A stretch of 52,354 nt of DNA from Candidatus Thorarchaeota archaeon. GTDB taxonomy: Archaea > Asgardarchaeota > Thorarchaeia > Thorarchaeales > Thorarchaeaceae. Both the position numbers and the translations under genes were made by a program. Of this stretch, positions 4,938 through 17,497 are shown one piece after another (positions within the stretch are counted from its first letter, which is position 1; each line of letters begins with the position of its first letter). The stretch is from positions 1 through 52,354 of the forward strand of contig JAFGAR010000121.1 of the NCBI GenBank assembly GCA_016933575.1. The letters run 5' to 3'. The notes under the pieces were generated by a model that made no database searches, was not told the origin of the DNA, and was given only the letters and a program-made list of their open reading frames with translations.

Positions 4938-5996
4938 ATGAGGTCATACGCCTTGAGAGGATTGATGAAGACTGCCAGAGGTCCTGGAAATTTAGAGTTA
5001 CGTGAGATTGATGAACCTACTCCAAAGAAAGATGAGGTCCTTATCGAAGTTGCCGCAGCTGGAATCTGCGGGACAGACATTCATATCAAACATGACCAAA
5101 CATTCTATACTCCTCCCGTGGTACTTGGGCATGAGTGGTCTGGTACTATTGTGGAGGTTGGTCCTGATGTCACTGAAGTCGGAGTGGGAGATGTTGCAGT
5201 CTCTCCTGCAACAGCATACTGTGGTAAATGCTACCAGTGTAAGACTGGACATATGAACCGATGCACATCAGCGAACAAGCGAATTCTTGGCACCTCTCTT
5301 GCCAATGGGGCTTTTGCAAAATACATCACAGTCCCTGAATATATCATCCACAAGGTTCCATCAAGCGTATCACTTGAAGAGGCTGCTCTGGCTGAACCTA
5401 CAGCTTGTGTTGTGCATTCAGTGATTGATAAATCGCCTATTCTTCCCGGAGATGTTGTAGTTGTTCAGGGTCCTGGAACAATGGGTCTTCTTGCTGCTCA
5501 GGTAGCCAAAGCGATGGGAGCTGGAAAGGTCATAGTGACCGGAGTCTCAGCAGATCAATGGCGTTTTGACATAGCAAAGAAAATTGGTATCGATATCACT
5601 CTGGACGTTCAGGTCGATCCTAATCCTATCAAGACAATAATGGATGAAACCGATGGACGCGGTGCAGATGTCGTAATTGAGGCATCTGGAGCATGTATCG
5701 CATGTAATCAAGCTCTTGAATTCGTCAAGGTTGCTGGGCACGTGACCCTTCTAGGAATTCGTGGAAGACCCCTTGATATTGATCTTGATGCAATGGCAAT
5801 CAAAGAACTCACTATGTCTGGTACCTGGGGAACTCTACCCTCTTCATGGGTGACAACCCTGCGTCTTATGGCATCCAAGAAGATTGATGTTGCTCCACTA
5901 ATTACTCATAGAATCTCTTTAGACAGATGGGAAGAGGGATTCGAATTAATGGAGCAGCAAAAGGCAATCAAAGTGCTCTTCACAGAGTTCAATTGA
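4938..5996 (+). CDS. Zn-dependent medium-chain dehydrogenase (sorbitol/threonine dehydrogenase-like)
   Basis: GICGTD, GHE, structural Zn CGKCYQC..C, NAD-binding GPGTMG. Confidence 0.92.
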   Translation: MRSYALRGLMKTARGPGNLELREIDEPTPKKDEVLIEVAAAGICGTDIHIKHDQTFYTPPVVLGHEWSGTIVEVGPDVTEVGVGDVAVSPATAYCGKCYQCKTGHMNRCTSANKRILGTSLANGAFAKYITVPEYIIHKVPSSVSLEEAALAEPTACVVHSVIDKSPILPGDVVVVQGPGTMGLLAAQVAKAMGAGKVIVTGVSADQWRFDIAKKIGIDITLDVQVDPNPIKTIMDETDGRGADVVIEASGACIACNQALEFVKVAGHVTLLGIRGRPLDIDLDAMAIKELTMSGTWGTLPSSWVTTLRLMASKKIDVAPLITHRISLDRWEEGFELMEQQKAIKVLFTEFN

Positions 5997-6000
5997 GACT

Positions 6001-6345
6001 CTACCTTGGTGCCCATGCATCAAGACAATCTTGGACTACGGATATATGTGATGCAGCTGGTCCTCCCCCCATCACAATGGCGACTGAACAAGCGTCCATA
6101 ATTTCTTCTCTTGAAGCACCAAGTGAGAGCGCCTGTTTTGTGTGATAGACTATACACTCTTCACATGGTGAGAGAATAGATGCTACAATGCAAATAATTT
6201 CCTTGAACTTTGCAGACAAAGCTCCATCCTTATGTACGGTTTTTTGGAGATCTGTGAAAGCATTCCTGGTCTCTGGCATGTCTCTATTAAGCGCGCCAAA
6301 ATGCTTCATGAAGCTCTTCAGAGTCTTTTCAACATCATCTGTCAT
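6001..6345 (-). CDS. Carboxymuconolactone decarboxylase/AhpD-family protein
   Basis: GALSAKFKE..CEECIVYH..A...GASREEI; CxxC redox motif. Confidence 0.9.
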   Translation of the reverse strand: MTDDVEKTLKSFMKHFGALNRDMPETRNAFTDLQKTVHKDGALSAKFKEIICIVASILSPCEECIVYHTKQALSLGASREEIMDACSVAIVMGGGPAASHISVVQDCLDAWAPR

Positions 6346-6360
6346 TATTCTCTTCCTCGA

Positions 6361-7164
6361 CTAGGATGTGAACCTGGCTAGTGTTCCCAAATTCCACGAG
6401 GGGTCTTGATATTGTGAATAATATAAAGCCTGTGCAGTATTCTTCTCATTCACTGTAAGGGCTCCTTTTTGAATTGCCTCTCCTGTTAGTCCTTTCAGAT
6501 GCTGAAGAATTGCTAACTTGATATTCTCCATCGCTGGAGCATTCTGTACTTCGTCATTAATGTTAGTGACAGTATCTCTTTTACTATCCATACATCTGAT
6601 TCTCGTCTTGTCTCGGAGATAGGTTGGTTGCCTTGGTGGTGGTATCAGACTATCTACAAGCTTTTCCAAGTCTGCATTGAAAAGAAGCGTACCATGAATG
6701 AAAGATACACCTTGCTTTATCCAACCAGCAGTACCAGAAATCTTCTTTTCACCGATTCTGATGCAAGAACCTACGGGATCAAATCTTGCTGGTATCTTGA
6801 TTGAAACAAGTGCCTTCACAATGACACCAATGAACGTTTCATAGAGTTCTTTGAGACCTCTTGGGACATATTCATGGCTTTGATGGAGACGAAGTGTGAA
6901 GTTGAGATTTCCTTTGTCATGGTAGACAGCTCCTCCTCCAGTGAATCTTCGAGCAATTGATATTCCATTTTTCTCACAATACCTTAGATTCACTTCTTTG
7001 TGAACACACTGGAATCTTCCAATTACGACTGCAGGATTAGATCGCCAGAATCTCACAGTGTTGAGCGTATTTCCTTCGCCAAGGTCTGTTTTGGCAAGTG
7101 CTTCATCAAATGCGAGATTCCGGTAAATATCACTGGTCAAATCATCCAATAAACGCCAAGGCAT
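6361..7164 (-). CDS. lplA: Lipoate-protein ligase A family (catalytic domain)
   Basis: N.AFDEAL, ARRFTGGGAVYHD, KKISG, HGTLL; next to 2-oxoacid dehydrogenase genes. Confidence 0.9.
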   Translation of the reverse strand: MPWRLLDDLTSDIYRNLAFDEALAKTDLGEGNTLNTVRFWRSNPAVVIGRFQCVHKEVNLRYCEKNGISIARRFTGGGAVYHDKGNLNFTLRLHQSHEYVPRGLKELYETFIGVIVKALVSIKIPARFDPVGSCIRIGEKKISGTAGWIKQGVSFIHGTLLFNADLEKLVDSLIPPPRQPTYLRDKTRIRCMDSKRDTVTNINDEVQNAPAMENIKLAILQHLKGLTGEAIQKGALTVNEKNTAQALYYSQYQDPSWNLGTLARFTS

Positions 7165-7200
7165 ACAGAATCAATGAAGCTCAGGTCTGATTAATCTGAT

Positions 7201-7288
7201 GGCTGTCTGGACTAGTGCCGATGGCTCAAATAGGTTGCTCGCCATCGGCTAGGTGCCTCAGAGCAACGGTTGAGGCGGAGCAGATGTC
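7201..7288. ncRNA. Candidate structured RNA: two hairpins with complementary loops (kissing-loop pseudoknot) closed by a basal helix
   Basis: Stem 7217-7225/7241-7249 (9 bp perfect); stem 7255-7260/7271-7276 (6 bp); loop-loop GTTGCTC 7234-7240 / GAGCAAC 7261-7267 (7 bp); closing GTCTG 7205-7209 / CAGAT 7281-7285. GC-rich island in an AT-rich intergenic region. Confidence 0.55.
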
Positions 7289-7471
7289 GTTATTTCGAGG
7301 CTTGACACGAATGATACGTGTATGATGTTATTTGGTTCTTGGAATTTAAAGGACCCATGATTCAAAATGTCCATTTTGCAGGATAAATCCAACTTATGTA
7401 GAGTGCTATAATTATGAGGATGACTCTGACTGCTATTGGGCTCATACAACCTCATGTCAATCCGGTTGACA

Positions 7472-7777
7472 TTAAACGGTATTCCCACATTCCGGACAAA
7501 ATACTGCTCCTGGTCGTACCTTTGTACCACAATATGGACATTGGGACTGGGTGCTCATTACCGGGGTCGATAAAAATCTCCCACTCTTCCGAATATTCTC
7601 TAAACCAATTCTATCACTATAGAGTTCAGTATATCCACAATCTGCACAGGTTACTGCCTCAAGGGTCGCAGTCAACATACCTGGTAAATCGACCCTAACG
7701 TAGCCTTGACCCTGAATTCTATGTGGGCCCGCAATTCTTGTGCTTCCGCATTTAGGACATGTTCCTGTCTTAATCAT
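7472..7777 (-). CDS. Double zinc-ribbon protein
   Basis: CPKC..CADCGYTELY and C-terminal CPYC..CPEC. Confidence 0.85.
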   Translation of the reverse strand: MIKTGTCPKCGSTRIAGPHRIQGQGYVRVDLPGMLTATLEAVTCADCGYTELYSDRIGLENIRKSGRFLSTPVMSTQSQCPYCGTKVRPGAVFCPECGNTV

Positions 7778-7839
7778 GAATTTCCACTGGTGATTTCTTG
7801 GTCTGAAAGGAAATATCTTTTTGCAGAAAACCTGGTCTA

Positions 7840-9069
7840 TTACATCTTCATCATGAATGGATTCTCGAGGGTCTCTTTCAAAGCTGCAAGGAATTGTCCT
7901 GCTGGTGCTCCATCAAGTACTCTGTGATCGACTGCGCAGCTTGCCATCATGGTTGAGCGAATGGCAATCATATCCTCAATAACAACTGGTTTCTTCTTAA
8001 TCTGTCCAAGAGCAAGTATAGCTGTTTCTGGAGGATTAATCACCGGAATGAACAAGTCCACTTGGAATGGTCCAAGATTCGAAACAGTGAAAGTACTTCC
8101 CGTAAGTTCCTCTGCAGTGAGTTCGTTCTTCTTGGCTCTCTTCCCCTTCTCCTTTGTTTCGAGAGCTATCTCGGTTATTGATTTCTTGTTTGCTGCTCTA
8201 ATTGTAACAACTATGAGACCGTCATCAGTTGCCATTGCTACACCAATATTGACATCCTCAAAAATATGCAGGTCGTTTCCTACAAGTGTTGCATTGAATT
8301 TTGGAAATCTTTCAAGTGTGTCAGCAGTTGCTTTGACTATAATATCATTGAATGACACTTTAATTCCATGAGCTTTCTCCACTCTGTGATTGAGTTCTAA
8401 ACGTAGTGCCACAACCTCAGTCATATCGATCTCTGTAATCATAGTAATGTGTGGATTTTGAGAGCTCTGAGTCATTCTCCTGGCTATGGTTCTCCGTAGA
8501 GGTGTCATTGTTTCAACCTTGCGAACTTTTCGTTCATCCGCGATTGAAATCTGAGGTACTGCATCCTTTGCAGCAACCACATCTCTCTCTACGATTCTAC
8601 CCTCTGGGCCAGTACCCGAAACGAATGACAGGTCTATATCAAGTTCTTTTGCCTTCTTCTTTGCTCTGGGTGATGCTTTGACTTTTCCACCAGGAAGTCT
8701 TGTTTCCTGTGTTTGGGATTTAATCTTAGGTGATTCAATCTTTGCTGTTACTACAGCTGGTGCTGATGCCGCAACTGATGGTGCTGCTGCTGCATTCAGT
8801 TTCTTGGGTGTGATGTCTGGTATCTTCTCACCCTCTTTACCAATGAATGCTATAGGTTCACTGATTGGAATCTCATCATTGACATCACAGAGTATCTTAA
8901 GGAGTATACCATCGTCTGGCGCTTCAAGCTCGAATTCGTTCTTCTCTCCGAAGATCTCTACAACCAGGTCACCTTTTTTGACCTTGTCCCCCTCTTTCTT
9001 CAACCATTTCAGTATGACACCATATTCCATGGCTACACTCATTCGTTGCATGATCATGGTTGTGACCAT
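7840..9069 (-). CDS. 2-oxoacid/acetoin dehydrogenase E2, dihydrolipoamide acyltransferase
   Basis: Lipoyl domain (WLKKEGD..GEKNEFELEAP), Ala/Pro linker, peripheral-subunit-binding ASPRAKK..GTGPEGRI, catalytic DHRVLDG. Confidence 0.95.
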   Translation of the reverse strand: MVTTMIMQRMSVAMEYGVILKWLKKEGDKVKKGDLVVEIFGEKNEFELEAPDDGILLKILCDVNDEIPISEPIAFIGKEGEKIPDITPKKLNAAAAPSVAASAPAVVTAKIESPKIKSQTQETRLPGGKVKASPRAKKKAKELDIDLSFVSGTGPEGRIVERDVVAAKDAVPQISIADERKVRKVETMTPLRRTIARRMTQSSQNPHITMITEIDMTEVVALRLELNHRVEKAHGIKVSFNDIIVKATADTLERFPKFNATLVGNDLHIFEDVNIGVAMATDDGLIVVTIRAANKKSITEIALETKEKGKRAKKNELTAEELTGSTFTVSNLGPFQVDLFIPVINPPETAILALGQIKKKPVVIEDMIAIRSTMMASCAVDHRVLDGAPAGQFLAALKETLENPFMMKM

Positions 9070-9079
9070 TATTTCTCAC

Positions 9080-10054
9080 CTATACGATCTCTCGAATTGC
9101 CTGTGCAATCCTCTTGTTATCAGGAATGAAGTAATCTTCAAGAGGTGGGCTGAATGGAACTGGTGTATCTGGGGCATTGACTCTCCTAATCGGCGCATCA
9201 AGCCAATCAAATGCCTCCTCCTGTACAGTCGCCGCAACCTCAGCAGTTGTTGCGCCAGTTCTTGTTTCTTCTGTTACGAGGACTAATCTCCCGGTCTTTT
9301 TAACGGATTCAATAAGCGTCTTCTTATCCAAGGGGACCAAGGTACGTGGGTCAATCACTTCAACACTGATTCCCTCTTTTGCTAATTCATCTGCGACCTC
9401 AAGTGCCTTGTGAACCATGATGAATGTTCCCCAGACGGTAACATCTGCACCTTCCCGTCGAATCTTGGCTTCACCAAAAGGAATCAGATATTCATCATTC
9501 GGGACCTCTTCTTTCTTATCATAGACCAGCTTATGCTCTGCAAACAATACTGGGTCTGGGTCGCGAATTGCAGTCTTGATGAGACCTTTGACATCTGAGG
9601 CAAAAGCTGGTACCGCTACTTTGAGACCTGGTGTATGCATAAACCACGCCTCTAGGCTCTGAGAATGATGAGAAGCAATATTCTTCCCCCCGCCAAAGAC
9701 GGTTCTCAGAACAAGAGGAACTGAAGTCTGACCACCGAACATATACCTCATCTTAGCGGCCTGATTGCATACTTGATCCATTGCCAGTGAGATTAGGTCT
9801 CCGAACATTATCTCTGCTACAGGAATCAGTCCTGTAATAGCCGCTCCAACTGCGGCTCCTGCAATAGTGTTCTCAGAGATTGGGGTATCTCGAACTCTAT
9901 CAACACCGAATTCCTCAGCAAGACCCTTTGTGACTTTGAAAGCTCCTCCCCAATTGATACCTATATCTTCTCCAAGTAGGAAGACCCGTTCATCTCGACG
10001 CATCTCTTCCCGTAGGCCAGCTGTAAGTGCGTCTCTGTAGGTCATCTCTGTCAT
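9080..10054 (-). CDS. 2-oxoacid/acetoin dehydrogenase E1 beta subunit
   Basis: GEDIG..GG, DTPISE, HHSQSLEA, EVIDPRTL. Confidence 0.95.
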   Translation of the reverse strand: MTEMTYRDALTAGLREEMRRDERVFLLGEDIGINWGGAFKVTKGLAEEFGVDRVRDTPISENTIAGAAVGAAITGLIPVAEIMFGDLISLAMDQVCNQAAKMRYMFGGQTSVPLVLRTVFGGGKNIASHHSQSLEAWFMHTPGLKVAVPAFASDVKGLIKTAIRDPDPVLFAEHKLVYDKKEEVPNDEYLIPFGEAKIRREGADVTVWGTFIMVHKALEVADELAKEGISVEVIDPRTLVPLDKKTLIESVKKTGRLVLVTEETRTGATTAEVAATVQEEAFDWLDAPIRRVNAPDTPVPFSPPLEDYFIPDNKRIAQAIREIV

Positions 10055-11029
10055 CTAGACCGCCTCCGCATAGACATCATCCAGAGCATCCTCTGGAGCT
10101 GGGTACTCTGACTTCTTTGCAAATTCCGCAGCCTTATCGACTTCTTTCTGAAGCGATGTGCGTATCTTCTCTGCTTCTTTCTCAGTTATGGCTCCCTGTT
10201 CGATCGCTATCTTCTTGATTATTTCAACAGCATCTCGATCTGGACTTAGCCACCGATCAGCCTCTTCCTGTGGTCTATACTTTGCAGGATCAAACCTTGA
10301 ATGACCCTTCATTCGATATGTCTGACACTCGATAAGTGTAGGTCCTCCTCCATCTCTAGCACGCTTCACAGCTTCAACTGTGGCCTCATAGACCTCCAGA
10401 GCGTTATTTCCATCAACAGTCTTACTTGGGATGCAATAGGCTTCAGCTCTTTGAGATATCGTCGAGCTCGGGCAAGTCAATTTGATTGGAGTTCCCATGG
10501 CATAGAAATTGTTCTCAACGATCCAGATAAGTGGCAATTTCCAAATAGCTGACATATTTAGTGATTCACCAAATGTGCCATTGTTTGAGGCTCCATCACC
10601 AAAGAAACAAGCAACTACATCATCAGTTTTTCTCATTTGACATGAGAGAGCTGCTCCTACAGCAATCGGAAGGCCTGAGGCGACCACTCCTGTTGCTCCA
10701 AGAACCCCCACATCAAACTGTGTGATGTGCATCGAACCACCTTTTCCCTTACACGAGCCAGTCTTTTTGCCAAGTAGCTCAGCTAATGCTGCATTCATGT
10801 CAGCACCCTTAGCAACTACATGTCCATGTCCTCTATGGGTACTTTGAATCCAGTCTGAATCTTTTAGTGCAGTTGTAACACCAGCTGCCACTCCTTCCTG
10901 TCCGAGATACAAATGAAGTGTTCCGGGTACAATATTTTCTCCAAAGAGATCCCATACTTTTTCTTCAAAGAGCCGGGTTTTCAATGTTCTAGTATACAGC
11001 TCTTTGAGTGCTTTCTTATCTGCTGCCAT
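10055..11029 (-). CDS. 2-oxoacid/acetoin dehydrogenase E1 alpha subunit (TPP-dependent)
   Basis: GQEG, STHRGHGH, GKGGSMH, TPP motif GDGA...NN, YRMKGHS. Confidence 0.95.
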   Translation of the reverse strand: MAADKKALKELYTRTLKTRLFEEKVWDLFGENIVPGTLHLYLGQEGVAAGVTTALKDSDWIQSTHRGHGHVVAKGADMNAALAELLGKKTGSCKGKGGSMHITQFDVGVLGATGVVASGLPIAVGAALSCQMRKTDDVVACFFGDGASNNGTFGESLNMSAIWKLPLIWIVENNFYAMGTPIKLTCPSSTISQRAEAYCIPSKTVDGNNALEVYEATVEAVKRARDGGGPTLIECQTYRMKGHSRFDPAKYRPQEEADRWLSPDRDAVEIIKKIAIEQGAITEKEAEKIRTSLQKEVDKAAEFAKKSEYPAPEDALDDVYAEAV

Positions 11030-17149: not shown

Positions 17150-17497
17150 TCACATCCCAATAATTGGTTCTGGAATGGGTATGCCAACAAGTGATGCCAT
17201 TCTCTTGTAGAGTTCCAAGTATTGATGGCCTCGCACTGTCACTTTGTAGACTCTCATACCCTCATCATCATCTTCTTCCAGCAGCCCTCTCTCACAGAGT
17301 TCTCCAATGGACTCCTTTGCACGATCTACTGGCATGTTAGTTGATCTAGCTGCTCTTGTCAATGGACAATAGCCCCAGATGTAGACAACTCGCAATAACT
17401 CGGCATAGATGTCGTATCTTGTGCGTTTCTGGAGTTCTTTCCTTGAACGTTTCTTTGGCTCTATGTATTCTGATTCATCATCTGACATCCTTGCCAA
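17150..17497 (-). CDS. Archaeal winged-helix transcriptional regulator
   Basis: KRTRYDIYAELL...TRAARSTNM...L.ERGLL...YKVTVRG..YL. Confidence 0.85.
   Translation of the reverse strand: MARMSDDESEYIEPKKRSRKELQKRTRYDIYAELLRVVYIWGYCPLTRAARSTNMPVDRAKESIGELCERGLLEEDDDEGMRVYKVTVRGHQYLELYKRMASLVGIPIPEPIIGM

What the first reader, a model, noticed from the sequence alone, without database searches (positions are those of the whole stretch)
7201..7288. Kissing-loop three-way-junction RNA upstream of lplA: candidate archaeal riboswitch or sRNA
Seen: a perfect 9-bp hairpin and a 6-bp hairpin whose loops are exactly complementary over 7 nt (GTTGCTC/GAGCAAC), enclosed by a basal helix, all within 88 nt of a 307-nt intergenic gap. 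A TTTAAA box at 7345-7350 would start a minus-strand transcript near 7320, placing the structure in the 5' leader of lplA (ATG 7164). The topology recalls purine-riboswitch aptamers and the SRP Alu domain, but the sequence signatures of both are missing. Inference: a cis-regulatory RNA for lipoate/2-oxoacid metabolism or a free sRNA; few archaeal riboswitches are known.
Basis: partly seen in the sequence, partly recalled or inferred. Interest (0 to 1): 0.7.

Follow-up and report, generated by a model that had tools for sequence, protein, structure and literature searches.

The report
Conserved Asgard small RNA beside lplA
The two hairpins belong to a roughly 110-base non-coding RNA gene with its own promoter, conserved across one family of Asgard archaea and absent from RNA databases; it looks like a free small regulatory RNA, not a lipoate riboswitch.

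Summary
Both hairpins and the 7-nt complementary loops are real, but the basal helix is not: it is no better than shuffles and is not conserved. The true unit is larger, at window 7215-7323 on the minus strand.

Covariance models find it in 68 of 86 genomes (11 of 16 genera) of the window's family. They find it in 0 of 124 sampled genomes of other families in the phylum. Rfam has no match. 17 of 21 stem pairs show compensatory changes, and G-U pairs fix the minus strand.

Outside the window's genus P2 is variable or absent and the loop complementarity is lost. The kiss is therefore a genus-specific feature, invariant there and so untestable by covariation.

The RNA usually sits before lplA. 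However, lplA seems to have its own leaderless promoter, and one genus keeps the RNA without the orthologous lplA.

New lead: the invariant stretch is antisense to the GADVVIEA-coding segment of the neighbouring convergent alcohol dehydrogenase gene. This is the best duplex in the genome, but it shows no codon-level co-evolution. The same element was flagged before in another genome.

The parts
7344..7350 (-). TATA-like box (TTTAAAT on the minus strand) of the RNA gene. A conserved G/C-rich stretch (7351-7356) lies just upstream, at the BRE position.
   Evidence: Conserved as CTTAAAT, TTATAT or TTTAAAT about 22 nt upstream of P1 in every genus, while the spacer sequence varies. tRNA genes of the same genome carry the same kind of box.
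7215..7323 (-). The small RNA as delimited by the covariance models. The predicted start is about 7321-7326. The 3' end is not defined in this species.
   Evidence: Full-length hits of R1 (110.8 bits, E 1.1e-22) and R2. Fold z-score is -3.55.
7305..7321 (-). P1, the 5' hairpin: 5 bp in the window (arms 7317-7321 and 7305-7309) with a 7-nt loop.
   Evidence: Family-wide, all 6 pairs show changes on both sides. In the genus, 2 pairs are compensatory.
7277..7303 (-). Near-invariant single-stranded stretch, AAGCCUCGAAAUAACGACAUCUGCUCC. It is the putative seed or recognition platform.
   Evidence: CCUCG and GACAUCUGCUC are invariant in the 25 genus sequences aligned and near-invariant across 11 genera. 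Only the linker length varies.
7255..7276 (-). On the RNA strand its loop carries GUUGCUC (7267 down to 7261).
   Evidence: 100% paired, with 2 compensatory pairs in the genus. Variable or absent in genera g15, g23, g26 and g28. A competing helix P2', GCCUCG (7296-7301) with UGAGGC, is the MFE in the window but has no covariation and 6 broken cells.
7217..7249 (-). On the RNA strand its loop carries GAGCAAC (7240 down to 7234).
   Evidence: 7 of 9 pairs show changes on both sides family-wide. A-C mismatches on the plus strand read as G-U on the minus strand.
7234..7267 (-). Putative loop-loop kiss, 7234-7240 with 7261-7267 (7 bp), specific to genus g1.
   Evidence: All 7 pairs are invariant in the 25 genus sequences aligned while neighbouring loop positions vary. 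Chance is about 0.0016. The complementarity is absent in other genera.
7187..7196 (-). Second TATA-like box (GATTAATCAG), inferred to be the promoter of a leaderless lplA mRNA.
   Evidence: TTAAT lies exactly 25 nt before the lplA ATG in 8 of 8 species of the window's clade, with an unconserved spacer. A related CAAGnnTTAAKG box precedes lplA in other genera.
6361..7164 (-). lplA (lipoate-protein ligase catalytic domain), the usual downstream neighbour.
   Evidence: Pfam LplA-B_cat, E 1.3e-47. Synteny.
5659..5683 (+). Site in the convergent Zn-alcohol-dehydrogenase gene (4938-5996, codons for RGADVVIEA) that is complementary to the RNA's invariant stretch. It is a candidate target or evolutionary source.
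   Evidence: Best non-self duplex in the 3.47-Mb assembly. By my hand alignment of the sequences it has about 23 pairs, including 11 contiguous. It is the best pairing site within the ADH CDS in 31 of 40 species.

Best explanation
The window holds a small non-coding RNA gene of about 105-115 nt on the minus strand. It belongs to a previously undescribed family confined, as far as searched, to one family (effectively one class) of Asgard archaea.

It is transcribed from its own strong TATA-type promoter. It folds into a 5' hairpin, an exposed and almost invariant 27-nt single strand, and one or two 3' hairpins.

Most likely mechanism (inferred): it acts as a base-pairing riboregulator. The invariant single strand is the recognition sequence. 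The best candidate partner is the mRNA of the neighbouring convergent Zn-dependent alcohol dehydrogenase, at the segment encoding GADVVIEA.

In the window's genus the loops of the two 3' hairpins have acquired a 7-bp complementarity. This probably locks them into a compact 3' domain. It also favours P2 over a competing helix that would bury the CCUCG part of the recognition strand.

Shown: conservation, strand, stems, promoter geometry, distribution and complementarity to ADH.
Inferred: a discrete transcript, the kiss, and any regulatory effect.
For: - Conservation far above neighbours: 80-87% nucleotide identity in 23 of 24 congeneric species, where flanking intergenic DNA does not align and LplA is only 55-74% identical in protein.
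- Structure: P1, P2 and P3 are 98.4% paired, and 17 of 21 pairs show changes on both sides. Slid controls give 30-50% paired.
- Strand: about 50 G-U cells on the minus strand would be A-C mismatches on the plus strand.
- Promoter: a TATA-like box at a fixed ~22 nt in all genera, resembling this genome's tRNA promoters.
- Independence from lplA: lplA has a second box 25 nt before its ATG. The RNA stands free in g23, convergent with a gelsolin-domain gene, where the orthologous lplA and ADH were not found. It also stands free in G050. lplA occurs without the RNA in g16 and g21.
- T-runs of 4 or more within 35 nt after P3 in 19 of 63 loci, against 8% background.
- Architecture: hairpin, conserved single strand, then hairpin(s) with variable loops is that of trans-acting sRNAs. 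P2 is dispensable.
- ADH lead: best duplex genome-wide. ADH is a conserved neighbour in 39 of 40 loci. The site is the best in the CDS in 31 of 40 species, median z -3.1. The core 12-mer pairs at a mean of 9.4 of 12 positions.
Against: - No expression data, so the transcript, its ends and any target are unproven.
- The window species has no T-run after P3, so read-through into lplA is possible.
- ADH codon choice is no more complementary than random synonymous recodings (median p 0.63, 0 of 40 below 0.05). The pairing is carried by amino-acid-constrained positions and shows no co-evolution.
- Nine of 40 species pair poorly at the ADH site.
- Genus g23 keeps the RNA without an orthologous ADH, and has no other site matching at least 18 of 21 nt.
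- Tight linkage to lplA survives at least five changes of the upstream neighbour. That would also fit a cis role.
- The kiss cannot be tested by covariation because both loops are invariant.
Confidence: 0.5

Rival explanations
1. A cis-acting 5' leader of lplA (riboswitch, protein- or metabolite-responsive attenuator). Transcription from the upstream promoter reads through into lplA, and the structure controls how much does so.
For: - The RNA lies immediately upstream of lplA and co-oriented with it in 10 of 11 genera. It stays there when the upstream genes differ.
- No T-run follows P3 in the window or in several other species.
- Two mutually exclusive helices exist, P2 and P2'.
- The loops are strictly conserved in the genus.
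Against: - There is no closing helix or multi-helix junction to form a pocket.
- The conserved nucleotides lie in an open single strand.
- P2 and the kiss are absent in four genera.
- No conserved expression platform was found. lplA is leaderless in one clade and SD-led in others.
- lplA has its own TATA-like box.
- The RNA persists without lplA in g23 and G050, and lplA exists without the RNA in g16 and g21.
- Insertions of 0.3-1.7 kb between the RNA and lplA are tolerated.
Confidence: 0.17
2. A protein-binding or scaffold RNA. The invariant single strand and the P3 stem are recognised by a protein, for instance the nucleic-acid-binding zinc-ribbon protein often encoded just upstream, rather than by an mRNA.
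For: - The stretch is invariant at every position over 11 genera, stricter than most sRNA seeds.
- The P3 stem sequence is itself strongly conserved.
- A double zinc-ribbon gene (7472-7777) with a weak match to a nucleic-acid-binding Zn-ribbon family is a frequent neighbour.
- There is no codon-level co-evolution with ADH.
Against: - The zinc-ribbon gene is missing next to the RNA in several species (L006, L007, L010, L021, L065, L072).
- The nearby Zn-ribbon ORF in g23 is not homologous to it.
- No K-turn, C/D or H/ACA signatures are conserved.
- The position-specific ADH complementarity would be left unexplained.
Confidence: 0.18
3. A relic of an inverted partial duplication of the ADH gene, or a DNA-level element, with no present RNA function.
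For: In the variants with a 4-nt linker, the complement of the invariant stretch reads in frame as G-A-D-V-V-F-E-A. This matches 7 of 8 residues of the ADH motif GADVVIEA.
Against: - It is invariant at positions corresponding to third codon positions, whereas the real ADH varies freely there.
- Linker indels are not multiples of three.
- It is flanked by covarying RNA stems and a promoter at fixed distance.
Confidence: 0.05

Closest known systems
Archaeal intergenic trans-acting sRNAs (Methanosarcina mazei sRNA162, sRNA154, sRNA41; Haloferax sRNA132; Sulfolobus 3'-UTR-binding sRNAs), as reviewed in PMC5867862 and PMC4152357
   Same: - An intergenic gene with its own promoter, about 100 nt long.
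- Terminal hairpins flank an exposed conserved strand.
- In several genera the loops carry CCUCC-like, anti-Shine-Dalgarno-like runs. This recalls the way sRNA41 masks ribosome-binding sites (PMC5867862).
   Different: - No sequence or Rfam relationship.
- Found only in one Asgard family.
- The candidate target site lies inside a coding region of a neighbouring gene.
- No expression or target data exist.
Purine riboswitch aptamer (Rfam RF00167) and other kissing-loop three-way-junction aptamers
   Same: In the window's genus, two adjacent hairpins have loops that could pair, side by side, upstream of a metabolic gene.
   Different: - No P1 closing helix and no junction core.
- No Rfam hit.
- The kiss and one hairpin are dispensable in related genera.
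- The RNA occurs without the downstream gene.
Regulatory RNAs born from inverted duplication of their target gene (the model proposed for young plant miRNA genes; from my own knowledge, not checked here)
   Same: The recognition strand is an antisense copy of a short coding segment of a nearby gene. The match is in frame at the protein level, 7 of 8 residues.
   Different: - Only about 24 nt are similar.
- No hairpin is formed by the duplicated arms.
- It is archaeal.
- Homology as opposed to convergence is unproven.

Membership tests
Purine-type kissing-loop riboswitch aptamer | A basal helix P1 closing a three-way junction | tested here: not met
   Pairing between the 5' strand and the 3' flank is no better than shuffles in 21 species, and the flank is not conserved.
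Purine-type kissing-loop riboswitch aptamer | A conserved L2-L3 loop-loop interaction | tested here: inconclusive
   The 7-bp complementarity is invariant in genus g1, so it gives no covariation. It is absent in all other genera.
Purine-type kissing-loop riboswitch aptamer | A match to the Rfam covariance model | tested here: not met
   No hit at gathering threshold or at E up to 10 in the window, nor at E up to 1 in 12 related loci.
Riboswitch or cis-regulatory leader (generic) | Always part of the 5' UTR of the regulated gene, with an expression platform | tested here: not met
   - The RNA is free-standing in g23 and G050.
- lplA has its own TATA-like box.
- No conserved platform was found.
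- lplA occurs without the RNA in g16 and g21.
Riboswitch or cis-regulatory leader (generic) | Ligand-dependent structural change | not testable with these tools
   Needs in-line probing or SHAPE.
SRP RNA Alu domain | A match to the SRP models, with conserved loop motifs in a ~300-nt RNA | tested here: not met
   No Rfam hit. The unit is about 110 nt.
C/D-box and H/ACA guide sRNAs | C (RUGAUGA) and D (CUGA) boxes, or a pseudouridylation pocket with an ACA box | tested here: not met
   - There is no C box.
- The CUGA in P2 varies to CUGG in four species.
- P3 has no internal loop and no conserved ACA.
- The only Rfam near-hits are far below threshold and lie outside the element.
Trans-acting intergenic archaeal sRNA | Its own promoter | tested here: met
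   A conserved TATA-like box lies about 22 nt upstream in all genera and resembles tRNA promoters of the same genome. This is comparative inference, not TSS mapping.
Trans-acting intergenic archaeal sRNA | A discrete transcript with a defined 3' end | tested here: inconclusive
   T-runs after P3 in 19 of 63 loci against 8% background, with none in the window.
Trans-acting intergenic archaeal sRNA | A conserved accessible seed complementary to target mRNA(s) | tested here: inconclusive
   The seed is invariant and predicted to be unpaired in the covariation-supported fold. The ADH site is the best partner in 31 of 40 species, but without codon-level co-evolution.

The most novel reading that the evidence does not exclude
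The RNA's recognition strand arose as an antisense copy of the GADVVIEA-coding segment of the neighbouring alcohol dehydrogenase gene. The RNA now represses that mRNA, and perhaps other medium-chain dehydrogenase mRNAs, by pairing inside the coding region. It would be an archaeal regulator born from its own target. It would tie dehydrogenase expression to the 2-oxoacid dehydrogenase and lipoylation cluster in Asgard archaea.
Probability: 0.2. Interest if true: 0.7.

Novelty: new member of a known kind. Interest (0 to 1): 0.5.

Why it matters
In the paper library searched I found no description of this RNA and no catalogue of regulatory RNAs for Asgard archaea. These organisms are mostly known from metagenomes.

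This is a class-wide RNA family with strong covariation support, a clear promoter and a concrete candidate partner. Covariance models are in hand. It can be annotated in existing genomes, looked for in sediment metatranscriptomes and tested in vitro.

The work also removes a tempting but unsupported claim of a lipoate riboswitch.

Tried and rejected
- Rfam at gathering and permissive thresholds on the window and 12 related loci: nothing relevant.
- tRNA or tmRNA: none in the window.
- Repeat or mobile element: single copy in the genome.
- Small ORF: 1- and 2-nt indels, and different frames between species, argue against coding.
- A brute-force duplex scan of the genome timed out. It was redone with a 7-mer prefilter.
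- A 13-mer complement search with up to 2 mismatches gave about chance numbers (112 found, about 76 expected by my estimate). Many hits were GADV-coding sequences.
- A hit after a small ORF at C142:17275 was looked at but not followed up.
- Pairing of the seed with the lplA start or the lplA and CMD coding regions: no recurrent site.
- The zinc-ribbon neighbour as a conserved partner: not consistently linked and not homologous in g23.
- Loop-loop complementarity in another form in other genera: none seen by eye.
- The organism's identity as Thorarchaeota rests on an earlier unchecked note. It is consistent with gelsolin-domain genes and a tRNA-Sec.

Full report
**Observation.**
- There is a perfect 9-bp hairpin (7217-7225 / 7241-7249) and a 6-bp hairpin (7255-7260 / 7271-7276). 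Their loops hold GTTGCTC (7234-7240) and GAGCAAC (7261-7267).
- Loops of these sizes hold a 7-nt perfect complement in about 0.16% of shuffles, and the duplex is worth -10.1 kcal/mol.
- The claimed basal helix does not hold up. On the RNA strand it is about four pairs and no better than shuffled flanks in the window or in 20 related species. The 3' flank is not homologous between species.

**Conservation and true extent.**
- The region is single-copy in its genome.
- blastn finds it in 23 of 24 species of the same genus at 80-87% identity. The conserved block is about 7217-7321, plus a TATA-like box near 7345. Flanking intergenic DNA does not align, and LplA protein is only 55-74% identical.
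It includes a 5' hairpin P1 (7305-7309 / 7317-7321) and a 27-nt stretch (7277-7303) that is almost invariant.

**Strand and structure.**
- Variants of the 9-bp stem that are A-C mismatches on the plus strand are G-U pairs on the minus strand.
- On a 25-species alignment, P1, P2 and P3 each have 2-3 pairs with compensatory changes and 93-100% pairing. The seven kiss pairs never vary.
- RNAalifold recovers the same three hairpins.
- On a 42-sequence alignment over eight genera, 17 of 21 pairs change on both sides with 98.4% of cells paired. Partners slid by 1-3 columns give 30-50%. That alignment was fitted to the model, which favours the structure.
- In the window, the MFE of the whole RNA uses a competing helix P2' (GCCUCG with UGAGGC). 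That helix has no compensatory change and six broken cells, so P2 is the conserved fold.

**Distribution.**
- A genus-level model (R1) finds full-length matches in 60 of 86 genomes of the family. A family-level model (R2) finds them in 68 of 86 genomes, 11 of 16 genera.
- In this collection the class is essentially that family.
- Neither model finds anything in 124 sampled genomes of 26 other families of the phylum.
- A visibly related but diverged copy precedes lplA in genus g24, so the family is somewhat wider than the models reach.
- Rfam has no match in the window or in 12 diverse loci.
- In the paper library I found nothing describing it.
- Another first-stage reader had flagged the same element in another genome.

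**What is conserved across genera**.
- The promoter box.
- P1, with a variable loop.
- The single strand A(A/U)GCCUCGAAA..CGACAUCUGCUC, in which only the linker length varies.
- P3, whose loop varies.
- P2, by contrast, is variable and is missing in g15, g23, g26 and g28.
- The GUUGCUC/GAGCAAC complementarity exists only in the window's genus. Elsewhere the loops often carry CCUCC-like runs.
- The kissing loop is therefore a lineage-specific elaboration and not the core of the RNA. Within the genus, exactly the seven complementary bases of each loop are frozen while their neighbours vary. That argues for function, but covariation cannot prove the pairing.

**Own gene or lplA leader?** Evidence for its own gene:
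- The TATA-like box lies about 22 nt upstream of P1 in every genus, with a variable spacer. tRNA genes of this genome have similar boxes.
- A second box, ACAACAnnTTAATCAG, lies at a variable distance after P3. It is exactly 25 nt before the lplA ATG in 8 of 8 species of the window's clade, which is the geometry of a leaderless promoter. In other clades a related box is followed by a short leader with a GGUGA- or GGAG-like Shine-Dalgarno sequence.
- T-runs follow P3 more often than background, in 19 of 63 loci against 8%. U-tracts are the archaeal termination signal (PMC8716108, seen).
- In genus g23 the RNA is convergent with a gelsolin-domain gene, has varying upstream neighbours, and the genome has only 29-35%-identical lplA paralogues.
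- G050 also has a free-standing copy.
- g16 and g21 have lplA with no RNA.
- Insertions between the RNA and lplA occur in several genomes.

Evidence for a cis role:
- Adjacency to lplA survives at least five changes of the upstream neighbour.
- The window species has no terminator-like T-run.

I weigh this as favouring an independent sRNA, with read-through a real possibility.

**A candidate partner.**
- I scanned the 3.47-Mb assembly for duplexes with the single-stranded stretch. The best non-self site lies 1.6 kb away, inside the convergent Zn-alcohol dehydrogenase gene (4938-5996, plus) at 5659-5683, the codons for RGADVVIEA. By my hand alignment of the sequences it has about 23 pairs, 11 of them contiguous.
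- This ADH follows lplA-CMD in 39 of 40 loci examined, over at least eight genera.
- In 31 of 40 species this site is the best predicted pairing site in the whole ADH coding region, with median z -3.1. The 12-nt core pairs at a mean of 9.4 positions.
- However, real codons pair no better than random synonymous recodings: median p 0.63, and none of 40 below 0.05. The complementarity is therefore carried by positions fixed by the protein.
- In the linker variants found in four genera, the complement of the RNA strand reads in frame as G-A-D-V-V-F-E-A.
- g23 keeps the RNA although its orthologous ADH was not found, and shows no other extended complementary site.
- My reading: the strand probably derives from, or converged on, this coding segment. 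ADH is a plausible but unproven target.

**Context.**
- The cluster runs E1-alpha, E1-beta, E2 of a 2-oxoacid or acetoin-type dehydrogenase, a zinc-ribbon protein, the RNA, lplA, a CMD/AhpD-like protein, and the convergent ADH.
- It is a coherent lipoyl-dependent module, so an RNA regulator placed inside it is biologically sensible. That last point is inference from general knowledge of these families.

**Verdict.**
- This is a real, new, family-wide structured RNA and most likely a small regulatory RNA.
- The riboswitch and three-way-junction reading is not supported.
- The kissing loop is plausible but genus-specific and untested.
- The identity of the organism as a Thorarchaeota-type Asgard archaeon comes from an earlier unchecked note. 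It is only indirectly supported here.

Noticed in passing
window 4938-11029: A coherent lipoyl-dependent module. It comprises E1-alpha (10055-11029), E1-beta (9080-10054), E2 (7840-9069), a double zinc-ribbon protein (7472-7777), lplA, a CMD/AhpD-like gene (6001-6345) and a convergent Zn-ADH (4938-5996). The gene order is conserved across most genera of the family. It may be an acetoin/butanediol-type or AhpD-linked system.
   Followed up: partly
L082 (G016:C33) and L083 (G013:C21:42894-42974); L022 and L023: In two congeneric species lplA and the full RNA have moved elsewhere. A remnant stays behind after E2 and the zinc-ribbon gene, consisting of the promoter, P1 and the first half of the single strand. 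At the new locus, a fragment GACATCTGCTCCAAGCC and a copy of the lplA-box motif lie upstream of the RNA promoter. This looks like the trace of a duplication and rearrangement with a breakpoint inside the RNA gene.
   Followed up: partly
L024 / L210 (G011:C346): About 1.7 kb is inserted between the RNA and lplA, with the break inside the CAACAAGCTAATCAG box. The lplA match there also contains one in-frame TGA. The insert was not examined.
   Followed up: no
L286 (G065, genus g24), upstream of lplA: A diverged relative of the RNA that the models miss. It has the same promoter type, a P1-like hairpin, CGAAUAC retained but the rest of the invariant strand changed, and a P3-like stem GUCGGUGAC/GUCACCGGC with a CCUCCCUCCCC loop.
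   Followed up: no
G000 contig C142, about 17275-17297 (+): Directly after the stop codon of a 56-aa ORF lies GGAGCAGATGTAG followed by TTTCGA. This is complementary to both halves of the RNA's invariant strand, and a terminator-like hairpin follows it. It may be a second target or chance. Conservation was not checked.
   Followed up: no
G000 genome (ARAGORN run): A tRNA-Sec gene is present, so the organism probably uses selenocysteine. Only 17 tRNAs were found in this 85%-complete assembly.
   Followed up: no
L068, L069, L071, L073 (genus g23): The free-standing RNA copies are convergent with a small gelsolin-repeat protein gene (88-130 aa), a eukaryote-like signature protein. The pairing of the two genes is conserved although the upstream neighbours differ.
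   Followed up: partly
L002, L003, L014: Two tandem paralogues of the zinc-ribbon gene lie upstream of the RNA in three species. In several others (L006, L007, L010, L021) the gene is absent from this position.
   Followed up: no
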